From positions 40,808-104,807 of the IMG/VR virus record IMGVR_UViG_3300050821_010761: a stretch of DNA of 64,000 bases; one strand, written 5' to 3'. The notes under the pieces are model-generated. The model was given only the letters and a program-made list of their open reading frames with translations. It had not been told where the DNA came from and made no database searches. The position numbers were made by a program, and so were the translations under genes. Below are positions 25,217-47,087 of the stretch, piece after piece. Origin of the DNA: a virus. Its lineage: Duplodnaviria > Heunggongvirae > Uroviricota > Caudoviricetes. Position 1 is the stretch's first letter. Every line of letters begins with the position of its first letter.

Positions 25217-25292
25217 GAGACGGAGACTTAAAACGTCTGCAGCGGATAGTTGTGACATGGACAATTGCGGGATCCGCCCCGTCTCTTTTTTT
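25217..25292 (+). ncRNA. candidate small structured RNA or leader, cloverleaf-like, followed by a T7 run
   Basis: GAGACGG/CCGTCTC closing stem; AGAC/GTCT, AGTTGT/ACAATT and GCGG/CCGC hairpins. Confidence 0.45.
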
Positions 25293-25339
25293 GAAGCATG
25301 AATTAAAAGGTCTCTTTTTTAAAAAGTACAGGAGAAATA

Positions 25340-44051: not shown

Positions 44052-44059
44052 TTAATAAA

Positions 44060-44274
44060 GTGAAGGAAGGGCGAACAATTTACAAAAAACGATCCCTAAA
44101 TAACACCCTGCGTAAATCCACGACAATCAACAAATGCTATAAATAGCACATAAGCTTTATGGATGACGATGCAGGTCTCGACTCGTCTGGGTAAATGAGT
44201 CAGCCATGTAGTATGCCCTATCGCTTCACCGCCGCAATCCTTCGCAGGTGCCATACGGCTCCCGCTATCGAGCC
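44060..44274 (-). ncRNA. candidate structured noncoding RNA (about 215 nt)
   Basis: Nested helices GGCTC/GAGCC, GACTC/GAGTC, CCTGC/GCAGG, ATCC/GGAT, TGCTAT/ATAGCA; long-range GTGAAG..GGGC/GCCC..CTTCAC; no ORF. Confidence 0.55.
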
Positions 44275-44847
44275 CTAAACGAGCCCGACGGACTGAAGCA
44301 AACTAACAGTTTCTTCACTCAATTTAATTTTTGCGCCCAAATTCTTCTGGGAAAGTTGGTCTTCGATATCTTCTAGTCGTTTCTTAATAAGGGAATCTGT
44401 ATTCTTGAATGCGCTAACGTCTTCTTTCAATGCGACTGGCAGTGAGAATGTAACGGAAGCCTCACTAAAACGGCTCTCGCCTTTCTCAAGATGAGATTTC
44501 TTTGCCGCAGCAAGATCGTTAGCTTCCAATTGATCCAGTGTGTCAACGTCATCTATGGATAATGCCAACAACGATTGTAATTCTTCCCTACGATTGATCA
44601 AAGCATTAATGCCAGTTGAATGATTAGCTTCAGCAATTTGCTGCCGAATCATAAAACGAGTAACTAGCAAGCCACTTCTCGTATTAACATCTGAGAGATA
44701 TTTTTCACGACCTTTTGCTAGTACGCCATTCCTTTCTTCTTCTGTGGCTAGAACGCGTACGCGAACAGAAGAATTAGGCTTCATAGCGTTAATATACGTC
44801 AAGATTTTTGCTTCAAGTTTGCGGGCTTTGCGAAGGTTCAATTCCAT
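44275..44847 (-). CDS. helical coiled-coil protein, possibly DIP1984-like
   Basis: 190 aa, GGAG RBS; IRQQIAEAN..GI..LINRREEL and LEDIEDQLSQKN...IKL pattern. Confidence 0.75.
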   Translation of the reverse strand: MELNLRKARKLEAKILTYINAMKPNSSVRVRVLATEEERNGVLAKGREKYLSDVNTRSGLLVTRFMIRQQIAEANHSTGINALINRREELQSLLALSIDDVDTLDQLEANDLAAAKKSHLEKGESRFSEASVTFSLPVALKEDVSAFKNTDSLIKKRLEDIEDQLSQKNLGAKIKLSEETVSLLQSVGLV

Positions 44848-44882
44848 GTTTTCTCCAAAAATCGAGTATAAAATATACGAAC

Positions 44883-44971
44883 TCTTTTAACTCATGCTCA
44901 TAACCAAAACCTGTAAGCAGCTGATTTCTTAAGAGGACGTTTTCTTTTAACTCATGCTCATAACCAAAACC
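44883..44971 (-). CRISPR. CRISPR-like mini-array: 2 identical repeats and 1 spacer
   Basis: GGTTTTGGTTATGAGCATGAGTTAAAAGA at 44971-44943 and 44911-44883, period 60; spacer matches 45221-45251 at 29/31. Confidence 0.8.
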
Positions 44972-44986
44972 AGTGGTTACTATGTG

Positions 44987-45014
44987 ACTATAACATGAAA
45001 TTTTTAGAAGTCAA
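44987..45014 (-). promoter_or_regulatory. sigma70-type promoter TTGACT-16-TATAGT with extended -10, driving the mini-array
   Basis: TG-T-TATAGT; the first repeat starts 15 nt after the -10 box. Confidence 0.65.
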
Positions 45015-45017
45015 CAA

Positions 45018-47087
45018 TTATTCTTTGTCTTTTTTGAAAAAACTAGCTGCAAGACTTTTGTGGAAATCCAAGGACTTTTCCAGTTTCATGGATTTATTCA
45101 AAAGCATGGCTTGGCCAAATGCTCTTATCTCACCTTTAGTCATGTACGGCATGCGTGATTTCATGAAGGTTTCGAATTCTTCACGCTTTTCCCACTTATC
45201 GTACTCTTCTTCAACTCGCTTGTAAGCAGCTGATTTCTTAAGAGGGCGCTTCGGATGTTTCAACATTACTTCCGCAGTCTTCTTAGAATCGGGCCTATAA
45301 GTGCCTTGATCTATCTGACGTTGCAAGTGATCGATTTTCTTATCTTTTGGCATCCAATTAGGATCTTTTGAATCTTTTTCAAGACTTTCTTTAACCAAAG
45401 CAGCGCCGCCGACCAAACGATCAGGGGAACATAGTCCAGATCCAGCTTCCAGCGATTTATGCATGGTTTGTCTAGGTGCCTGCAAATTATTATGAAGCAT
45501 GTTATTGTTTGGGGCACCCGCTGCGGGAGTAGGATCCAAAACCTGTTTATTTGGAATACTCTGTCTTTGCTGATTTTGTGAAGATATATTAGAAGAGCTT
45601 CTATTGACTTTGTGCTTGTCCCAATGTCTTTTGCTATTATTTGGATAAGCTTCTTCTGCGCGTCTAGCTCTCTGTTGTTTCTGGTTTGCTTCTTTAGCGT
45701 TACTTTCTTCGCCTGGTCGTAGCGTTTCGGATTTTTTATAATCGACTTTACCGCTCATTCCTGGATCATGTAATTTGTCAGTCTTTGGAGAAGCATTTGG
45801 ATGTAAATTCGCGGATTTAGGTCTTGAATTACGCTTAATTTCGCGATCTTTCATGGAAATAGCAGCTGAACTATGCAAATTTGCTTTATCATTATGATGT
45901 CTAGCCATGGAAGGATTAGCATTAGCGGCCTTTTTATGCCAAGCGGCGGCTTCTTCATGTTCCTTAGCGTTAAATCCAGTTTCACTGACTTTTGCGTGGC
46001 TGTGTACATCCTTACCACTAGAAGTCGTCCCGATCTTAGAACCATTTGGAGTGGAAGGTGGAACAATTTTCAAAGCCTTTGACATATCCTCAGATTTTGG
46101 AAGGCTAGGTTTTGGCATTGAACGCATTTCTTTCAAAGTTTGACCATGAAGCTGCTTGGCTGAACCACCAATGTCTCTGATTACATTTGGATTAGTCGCG
46201 GATTCACCAATGGGTCCGCCATGAACTGGTTTATTGATACCTTTGTGGTGACTTACGTCTAAATTACCTTTATGTTTGGCCTGTGGATATGGAGATTCTT
46301 GAGAATTACCGTGACCCTTTGCCATTTTTTCAGTTCTAGCCATATCTGGTTCGGATTGCGTCATCATATTGGTAGGTGATATTGGGCCAGATCCGCTAAG
46401 ACCAGAAGATGAGCCGTAAGCCAAACCGCCAGCACCGACGTCTTTTTTCATCGGCTTTCTGAATAACTCTTTTGCCCGTTTGACCAAAGACTCTTTTTTT
46501 AGGAGATCCCAAAGACCTTCACTCTTATTCATCTTAACTACTTCAATTTCAACGTAATTTTCCGTTTTGAAAATATTATCAAGGTTGTCTTTTGGTTTTT
46601 TACCAGACGAAGGTACCATTTCGGCAACTGCTTGTTTATTACAAGGCAGTCCAGTGCAGGTGATTTTACGCGCAATAGAACGAACTATTGTATTACCTTG
46701 TTTCGATATGGTAGCACCTTCGACGCTGAACCCTATGATATCCTTAGCATTTTTGCCACGATGATCGAGGTCATAACGGAACAATCCAGCTACAGTCCTT
46801 GCAGAATCAGTGTAATCGTCAAACAATTCTCCAAGAACATATAGATAAGGAACCTGACACTTTTCCCAATAATACTTCTGACGATCATCCTCGCAATCCT
46901 TAACAGAGAAAATTTTTCTAGCTTTTAGGATCTTACCAACTAGTTGATCTGGCACGTCTTTTTTGTGCTCCCAGTTCAAACTTCCATCAATTTCGAGGCT
47001 ACTGATATCGAGACCTGCAATATCAACTATTTCGCCAGAAGAATCGATATTTTGGCTTGCGCCTATGCCGTCGACGTATGTCCCCAA
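45018..47087 (-). CDS. prohead protease (HK97-type) with long multi-segment C-terminal extension
   Basis: TTG start with GGGAG RBS; DSSGE, NWEH (His), GFSVEG (Ser), ITCTGLPCN in the first ~160 aa; ~500-aa low-complexity tail. Confidence 0.8.
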   Translation of the reverse strand: MGTYVDGIGASQNIDSSGEIVDIAGLDISSLEIDGSLNWEHKKDVPDQLVGKILKARKIFSVKDCEDDRQKYYWEKCQVPYLYVLGELFDDYTDSARTVAGLFRYDLDHRGKNAKDIIGFSVEGATISKQGNTIVRSIARKITCTGLPCNKQAVAEMVPSSGKKPKDNLDNIFKTENYVEIEVVKMNKSEGLWDLLKKESLVKRAKELFRKPMKKDVGAGGLAYGSSSGLSGSGPISPTNMMTQSEPDMARTEKMAKGHGNSQESPYPQAKHKGNLDVSHHKGINKPVHGGPIGESATNPNVIRDIGGSAKQLHGQTLKEMRSMPKPSLPKSEDMSKALKIVPPSTPNGSKIGTTSSGKDVHSHAKVSETGFNAKEHEEAAAWHKKAANANPSMARHHNDKANLHSSAAISMKDREIKRNSRPKSANLHPNASPKTDKLHDPGMSGKVDYKKSETLRPGEESNAKEANQKQQRARRAEEAYPNNSKRHWDKHKVNRSSSNISSQNQQRQSIPNKQVLDPTPAAGAPNNNMLHNNLQAPRQTMHKSLEAGSGLCSPDRLVGGAALVKESLEKDSKDPNWMPKDKKIDHLQRQIDQGTYRPDSKKTAEVMLKHPKRPLKKSAAYKRVEEEYDKWEKREEFETFMKSRMPYMTKGEIRAFGQAMLLNKSMKLEKSLDFHKSLAASFFKKDKE

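What the first reader, a model, noticed from the sequence alone, without database searches (positions are those of the whole stretch)
44060..45014. Candidate compact RNA-guided or RNP module: promoter, mini-array, 190-aa helical protein, structured RNA
Seen: all four elements are contiguous on the minus strand with no terminator between the array and the ORF (35 nt from the last repeat to the ATG); no cas gene is in the window. Inference: either the array borrows host Cas and the ORF/ncRNA are passengers, or the three products act together as an undescribed guide-protein-scaffold system. The ORF has no recognisable nuclease motif, so a non-cutting (regulatory or filament-forming) role is more likely.
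Basis: inference. Interest (0 to 1): 0.75.

Follow-up and report, generated by a model that had tools for sequence, protein, structure and literature searches.

The report
Orphan phage mini-CRISPR beside protein-RNA pair
Two unrelated things sit side by side in this soil phage: a one-spacer CRISPR array whose matching DNA-cutting system I found only in related phages (this phage has none), and a widespread, unstudied protein gene that is consistently followed by its own structured RNA.

Summary
The four elements are real but form two modules, not one system.

(1) The array is genuine CRISPR. A closely related phage carries a 12-repeat array with the same 28-nt repeat (26/28) and 32-nt spacers behind a TnpB-derived nuclease, cas1, cas2 and a tracrRNA; the tracrRNA covaries with the repeat in three phages. 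This complete 169-kb Mx1-like genome encodes none of these. Its spacer matches its own head-protease gene next to CC, except for three synonymous changes at the PAM-proximal end, as expected for a guide aimed at sibling phages with self-escape. Four or more lone repeats lie elsewhere in the genome.

(2) The 190-aa protein folds like DIP1984/DUF6847. It has no array upstream in 0 of 41 related loci, but all 28 homologs with enough downstream DNA show the UUGU-rich tract; a covarying RNA fold is shown in the closer half. An independent metatranscriptome contig covers this RNA. The scan found this protein-RNA pair before in other genomes.

Best reading: the array replaced an ancestral 5' leader and borrows (or jams) a co-infecting relative's type V effector. 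No function was tested.

The parts
44987..45014 (-). sigma70-like promoter, ancestral to the 190-aa gene, now driving the array
   Evidence: conserved in L002, which has no array
44972..44986 (-). short leader; its last 7 nt (AACCAC plus 1) match the leader end of the full array in L199
44944..44971 (-). CRISPR repeat 1, 28 nt, 26/28 identical to the repeat of a phage type V array
44912..44943 (-). 32-nt spacer matching the head protease gene
44884..44911 (-). CRISPR repeat 2, identical to repeat 1
44862..44883 (-). 22 nt matching the opposite strand of the L002 leader with 2 mismatches, CC in front: possible second spacer or hairpin micro-inversion
44275..44847 (-). 190-aa DIP1984/DUF6847-like helical protein; GGAG ribosome site at 44856-44853
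44058..44232 (-). conserved structured RNA closed by a terminal helix, with repeated UUGU units; two small variable hairpins precede it (44274-44233)
   Evidence: RNA-run contig 44077-44283
45221..45252 (-). self protospacer in the head protease gene, 3 synonymous mismatches at spacer positions 1, 4, 7
45253..45254 (-). CC immediately 5' of the protospacer, candidate PAM
   Evidence: 28+32 register fixed
45018..47087 (-). head maturation protease gene (the target gene)
   Evidence: PHROG 1028
25282..25309 (+). lone partial repeat 30 nt before a chaperonin-like gene; other lone copies lie outside the window

Best explanation
Two independent modules. (A) A leader-repeat-spacer-repeat unit from a phage-borne, TnpB-derived type V CRISPR family replaced the ancestral 5' leader of the 190-aa gene and is read from that gene's promoter. 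The phage has no effector or tracrRNA, so the crRNA can act only in trans. Most likely it is loaded on the effector plus tracrRNA of a co-infecting relative and guides cutting of sibling head-protease genes that carry the spacer-type codons; the phage's own gene escaped by three silent changes next to the CC PAM. The lone repeats probably titrate the same machinery. (B) The 190-aa protein and the RNA behind it are an older, widespread pair. Most likely several copies of the helical protein, through conserved basic residues in its N-terminal half, bind the repeated UUGU units of the RNA to form a small ribonucleoprotein (about 60%); its biological job is unassigned, with an RNA-restrained conflict effector as my leading guess (about 35%). 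SHOWN by computation: repeat family, 28+32 geometry, tracr covariation, absence of cas, independence of A and B, conservation of B. INFERRED: expression of the array, CC as PAM, use in trans, escape, decoy role, protein-RNA binding.
For: Repeat and geometry match a 12-repeat array behind TnpB-like gene + cas1 + cas2 in a phage with 87% portal and 81% terminase identity. Related systems in L203, L204, L206. tracr loop and anti-repeat pair fully with their own repeat in three systems: loop 6/6 each, anti-repeat 8, 9 and 10 nt. Self match has 3 mismatches against at least 8 for 200 shuffled spacers; all three at third codon positions (p 0.033) and at the first three of 11 (p 0.006); the spacer holds the commoner codons, the gene the rarer ones. 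The family's Cas1 is closest in PDB to 8K21/4W8K, codes cited in the ICP1 type I-F paper, which gives CC/GG as the canonical I-F PAM. No array at 41 homolog loci. RNA profile built without the window finds it at E 1.7e-27 and hits only just behind family genes in 2.0 Mb. UUGU 172 observed against 70 shuffled and 26 on the other strand.
Against: No perfect protospacer in a sibling was found. The window repeat differs from L199 at two tracr-pairing positions (4/6 with the L199 loop), so its cognate system was not found. PAM rests on one clean case. No RNA contig covers the array (uninformative). The genome scan used only the window's repeat variant, so a host-borne copy is not excluded. The L199 contigs are binned in a MAG. 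NCBIfam scores the Cas1 better as I-E than I-F. Protein-RNA binding untested; the fold match is modest (Z 9.8, rmsd 9.6).
Confidence: 0.55

Rival explanations
1. Relic: an ancestor carried the full type V locus, escaped self-targeting, then lost effector and tracrRNA; array and lone repeats are leftovers with no present role.
For: A close relative has the full system about 2.5 kb from the equivalent site; a degenerate repeat-32 nt-repeat unit exists at C1 120593; no effector or tracr in the genome.
Against: The array is not at the orthologous site (the gene that follows the L199 array is window 42349-42101); both repeats are identical; a 16-nt core is kept exactly in four places and all clear lone copies lie on the sense strand.
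Confidence: 0.2
2. Pure decoy: array and lone repeats act as RNA anti-CRISPRs against a rival phage's type V system. The unit was captured by recombination from the rival's array, whose spacer had targeted this phage.
For: The repeat keeps the 8-nt anti-repeat match to the L199 tracr but breaks the loop pairing; array lies 309 nt from its protospacer; Racrs are lone repeats and include type V-A cases (PMC10651486).
Against: The changed positions are ones that also covary between natural systems, so a cognate tracr may exist; a full spacer is not needed for a decoy.
Confidence: 0.15
3. Classical mini-array: the effector is encoded by the unknown host, as in published cases.
For: Published mini-arrays match host repeats (PMC11656645); host unknown; only one repeat variant was scanned.
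Against: No array with the 19-nt core among 185,579 species genomes; 25 single hits, mostly one conserved coding context; the systems found lie on contigs with phage genes (clear for L199, L203, L206; L204 less so).
Confidence: 0.07
4. One reading: crRNA, 190-aa protein and downstream RNA form one guide-protein-scaffold complex.
For: One promoter, no terminator between them; repeat-RNA duplex -20.3 kcal/mol, reached by 5% of shuffles.
Against: 0 of 41 homolog loci with an array; no 190-aa homolog in the fetched DNA around four type V loci; the repeat already has a dedicated tracrRNA and nuclease.
Confidence: 0.03

Closest known systems
Virus-borne mini-CRISPR arrays (SPV1/SPV2, PMC6858448; review PMC11656645)
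   Same: One spacer, leader with promoter, no cas, target close to the array, own copy protected by point mutations, extra stand-alone repeats.
   Different: Published repeats match the host's CRISPR; here the only match is a system carried by related phages, and it needs a tracrRNA that this phage lacks.
TnpB-derived type V systems: V-U candidates (PMC10691335), TranC (via bioRxiv 10.64898/2026.03.27.714800), phage Cas12r (10.64898/2026.04.20.719267)
   Same: 430-530 aa TnpB-like effector with array downstream; tracrRNA as in TranC; I-E-like repeat/spacer lengths as in Cas12r.
   Different: The relatives' system has its own I-E/I-F-like cas1 and cas2 and 28-nt repeats. The preprint lists 32-38-nt repeats and no linked accessory cas for TranC clades 3, 9, 11, 20; Cas12r has no tracr or cas1. 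I could not check the V-U6 to V-U45 supplement, so it may already be catalogued.
RNA anti-CRISPRs / solitary repeat units (PMC10651486)
   Same: Lone intergenic repeat copies on the transcribed strand.
   Different: Several copies in one genome, partial (3' 16-19 nt), and the likely target is a phage-encoded, tracr-dependent system.
DIP1984 / Pfam DUF6847 (PF20935), PDB 3KDQ
   Same: Best PDB fold match (VIA rank 1, Z 9.8, rmsd 9.6, 140 aligned); Atlas neighbour by features 0.91 and TM 0.60/0.74.
   Different: 190 aa against about 150; 10-12% identity; no profile hit. No paper on the family's RNA found.

Membership tests
viral CRISPR mini-array | 1-2 spacers between true CRISPR repeats | tested here: met
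   26/28 to a cas1-linked 12-repeat array, same 28+32 geometry
viral CRISPR mini-array | no cas genes in the virus | tested here: met
   TnpB/Cas12 and Cas1 absent by tblastn, profile and Pfam searches; other cas families were not searched one by one
viral CRISPR mini-array | spacer targets a related virus and spares self | tested here: inconclusive
   self copy has 3 silent PAM-proximal mismatches; no exact sibling target found
viral CRISPR mini-array | repeat identical to a host CRISPR repeat | tested here: inconclusive
   no host array with the exact core; host unknown, one variant scanned
viral CRISPR mini-array | interference in co-infection | not testable with these tools
   needs experiment
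TnpB-derived type V system (relatives' loci) | TnpB-like effector with intact RuvC D-E-D, array downstream | tested here: met
   L199: NF040570 over cut-off, motifs at 316, 408, 501; arrays in L199, L203, L206
TnpB-derived type V system (relatives' loci) | tracrRNA pairing with the repeat | tested here: met
   covarying loop and anti-repeat in three systems; predicted, not assayed
TnpB-derived type V system (relatives' loci) | placement in a named subtype or TranC clade | not tested
   below the C2c8 and Cas12f2 cut-offs; reference clades not available
TnpB-derived type V system (window itself) | effector and tracrRNA in the same genome | tested here: not met
Racr / solitary repeat unit | lone intergenic repeat on a transcribed strand | tested here: met
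   C1 110100, 120593, 40057, 66089; only 110100 stands clear with a profile from other phages
Racr / solitary repeat unit | inhibits the cognate Cas | not testable with these tools
   needs experiment
DIP1984 / DUF6847 | profile match | tested here: inconclusive
   no hit for 64 members in the Pfam copy, none in NCBIfam for the window protein
DIP1984 / DUF6847 | 3KDQ-like fold over the whole chain | tested here: inconclusive
   top match in VIA and near top in Foldseek (E 0.33), Atlas agrees, but Z 9.8 is middling for helical proteins
type III toxin-antitoxin (ToxIN-like; features from memory) | RNA repeats upstream of an RNase toxin gene | tested here: not met
   the conserved RNA lies downstream; no RNase family hit
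TIGR-Tas (features from memory) | alternating dual repeats with about 9-nt spacers and a Nop-domain protein | tested here: not met
   one repeat type, 32-nt spacer, no Nop hit

The most novel reading that the evidence does not exclude
A cas-less phage parasitises a rival phage's own CRISPR: in co-infection its mini-array feeds the rival's TnpB-derived nuclease and tracrRNA a guide against the rival's essential head-protease gene, while lone repeats soak up that machinery. The machinery itself is an uncatalogued compact type V system with I-E/I-F-like adaptation and a CC PAM.
Probability: 0.3. Interest if true: 0.82.

Novelty: new variant of a known kind. Interest (0 to 1): 0.63.

Why it matters
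Known viral mini-arrays and RNA anti-CRISPRs plug into the host's CRISPR. Here the only matching machinery is on competing phages, which would add a phage-against-phage-CRISPR layer to inter-virus conflict. The trail also exposes a compact (430-530 aa) nuclease family with a readable tracrRNA, its own adaptation genes and a candidate CC PAM, ready for reconstitution. Separately, the protein-RNA pair has over 1,000 clusters at E below 1e-10 and no paper that I could find.

Tried and rejected
Rfam: no match for the window, the homolog RNAs, the relatives' leader motif or the tracr regions. Repeat core in GTDB genomes: 25 single hits, no array; most share a coding context that reads like a THxHxDH motif. 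Repeat, degenerate protospacer, Cas1 and effector P0189 in IMG/VR: nothing relevant. Spacers of L199, L203 and L206 found no protospacer in loci held, and L199's none in INPHARED, so the PAM could not be tested independently. A type I-F reading (28+32, CC) and a type II reading (opposite strand, CGG) were dropped once the type V locus fixed repeat, strand and register. A promoter or operator reading of the lone motifs is weakened because the motif is a CRISPR repeat and is absent from relatives G001-G003. No tracr-like hairpin with the loop expected for this repeat in the genome. Run X2 gave only scattered pieces, none on the array; absence of RNA contigs on the array proves nothing. No complex prediction was run. 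PMC12171694 was not held.

Full report
Setting. The window is C1:40808-104807 of a 168.8-kb phage contig rated 100% complete. Its capsid protein is 51% identical to that of Myxococcus phage Mx1; the host is unknown. The best sequencing run is a soil metagenome that may be the source.

Observation. Promoter-like site, two identical repeats 60 nt apart, 190-aa ORF and downstream RNA are contiguous on the minus strand with no terminator-like site. The finding as given does not mention that the spacer matches 45252-45221 in the upstream head-protease gene. There are three mismatches, at spacer positions 1, 4 and 7, all silent third-codon changes, with CC directly 5'. Shuffled spacers never do better than 8 mismatches in this genome. 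The chance that three mismatches all fall on third positions is 0.033, and on the first three of eleven 0.006. The spacer carries the phage's commoner codons and the gene the rarer ones, which suggests that the gene moved away from the spacer.

The array is independent of the ORF. The protein has 65 close homologs and 1,768 clusters by profile. None of 41 loci (some redundant, two with under 100 nt upstream) has an upstream repeat pair: best score 11 against 29 in the window. The 86%-identical relative L002 keeps the same promoter and ribosome site but has a different stem-loop between them. So the array replaced an ancestral leader recently.

Where the repeat comes from. Following a neighbouring oxygenase gene led to a close relative (portal 87%, terminase 81%). 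It carries a 528-aa TnpB-like gene with RuvC motifs intact, cas1, a cas2-sized gene, about 190 nt of non-coding DNA and 12 repeats of 28 nt with 32-nt spacers (one 33). The repeat differs from the window's at two positions, and the leader end is shared. Effector homologs gave further loci: L203 (tracr + array, no cas1), L206 (cas1, cas2, tracr, array) and L204 (cas1, cas2, start of tracr at the contig end). In each, the non-coding region opens with a 5-bp hairpin whose 6-nt loop pairs 6/6 with the end of its own repeat, with compensating changes, and a later segment pairs 8-10 nt with the middle of its own repeat. This is a tracrRNA by covariation. The window repeat keeps the 8-nt match to the L199 tracr but only 4/6 of the loop pairing, so its exact partner was not found. 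The Cas1 scores best as I-E by NCBIfam and closest to ICP1-type I-F structures in PDB; canonical I-F uses a CC/GG PAM, which fits the CC seen here but is not proof.

This genome lacks the machinery. No TnpB/Cas12, Cas1, Cas2 or tracr homolog. It does hold lone partial repeats at C1 110100, 120593, 40057 and 66089, all intergenic and on the sense strand; the 16-nt core occurs exactly four times (two in the array) against 0.0001 expected. Relatives G001-G003 lack them. No array with the exact core was found in 185,579 species genomes, though only this variant was scanned.

The protein-RNA pair. The model (pLDDT 87) is long helices. The best solved match is 3KDQ, DIP1984, with a middling score, and the Atlas points to DUF6847. 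Basic residues R6, K7, R9, K10, K14, R31, R64, R68 and R87 are nearly invariant. All 28 distinct homologs with enough downstream DNA have at least three UUGU in the next 250 nt: 172 in total with the window, against 70 in shuffles and 26 on the other strand. In 14 closer sequences a terminal helix and an inner hairpin covary: 7 of 11 pairs change on both sides, above all slid controls; relatedness can inflate the shuffle test. A profile built without the window finds the window RNA at E 1.7e-27 and otherwise hits only just behind family genes; the distant homologs fall below its threshold. A soil metatranscriptome from another study holds an identical 207-nt contig on 44077-44283; contigs give no strand or ends and DNA carry-over is possible, so this is a weak hint of a stable RNA. 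No Rfam family and no paper. Earlier scan notes report the same kind of pair in two other genomes; they are leads, not independent support.

Comparison and verdict. The array works like the SPV1/SPV2 mini-arrays, down to a nearby target and self-protecting point mutations, but published arrays use host repeats. TnpB-to-Cas12 transitions are common, about 50 events, and phage cases exist, so the relatives' system is a new or at least uncharacterised lineage of a known kind. What remains is a new variant of a known kind with an unusual likely donor, beside an undescribed but previously flagged protein-RNA pair. Interest 0.63.

Noticed in passing
L199:3999-7510, L203:5001-6925, L204:5001-7616, L206:4001-7065: Phage-borne TnpB-derived type V CRISPR family with I-E/I-F-like cas1, cas2, covarying tracrRNA and 28+32 arrays; deserves its own study.
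   Followed up: partly
genome C1 120593-120512, minus (outside window): Partial repeat, exactly 32 nt that contain a sigma70-like promoter, then a shortened repeat: a second, decayed unit or chance spacing.
   Followed up: partly
L002:151-200, L004:9890-9936, also L003, L015-L019, L202: Conserved stem-loop leader upstream of the 190-aa gene in relatives, no Rfam match; replaced by the array in the window.
   Followed up: partly
window 45258-45341: FlgM-like stretch (Pfam E 7.7e-5, below cut-off) in the protease tail just before the protospacer; weak hits also in L004, L200, L202.
   Followed up: no
L201:2844-5790: Related phage has a TROVE/Ro60 gene followed by 1.4 kb of tRNA-like repeats, possibly Y RNAs, at the position after the protease gene.
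   Followed up: no
L003:11454-14812, L004:11139-15029, L199:926-3984: Relatives carry an NAD salvage cluster (PRTase, NAMPT-like, NADAR, macro) at this site; the window has an endonuclease VII gene (43895-43434) there.
   Followed up: no
genome C1 about 110200-110270: tRNA-like hairpin not called by ARAGORN, just after a lone repeat.
   Followed up: no
L205:1501-2320 (Vibrio phage 2.275.O): A cultured phage has a distant homolog with a UUGU-rich, well-folding downstream RNA (z -3.5): a usable test model for the protein-RNA pair.
   Followed up: partly
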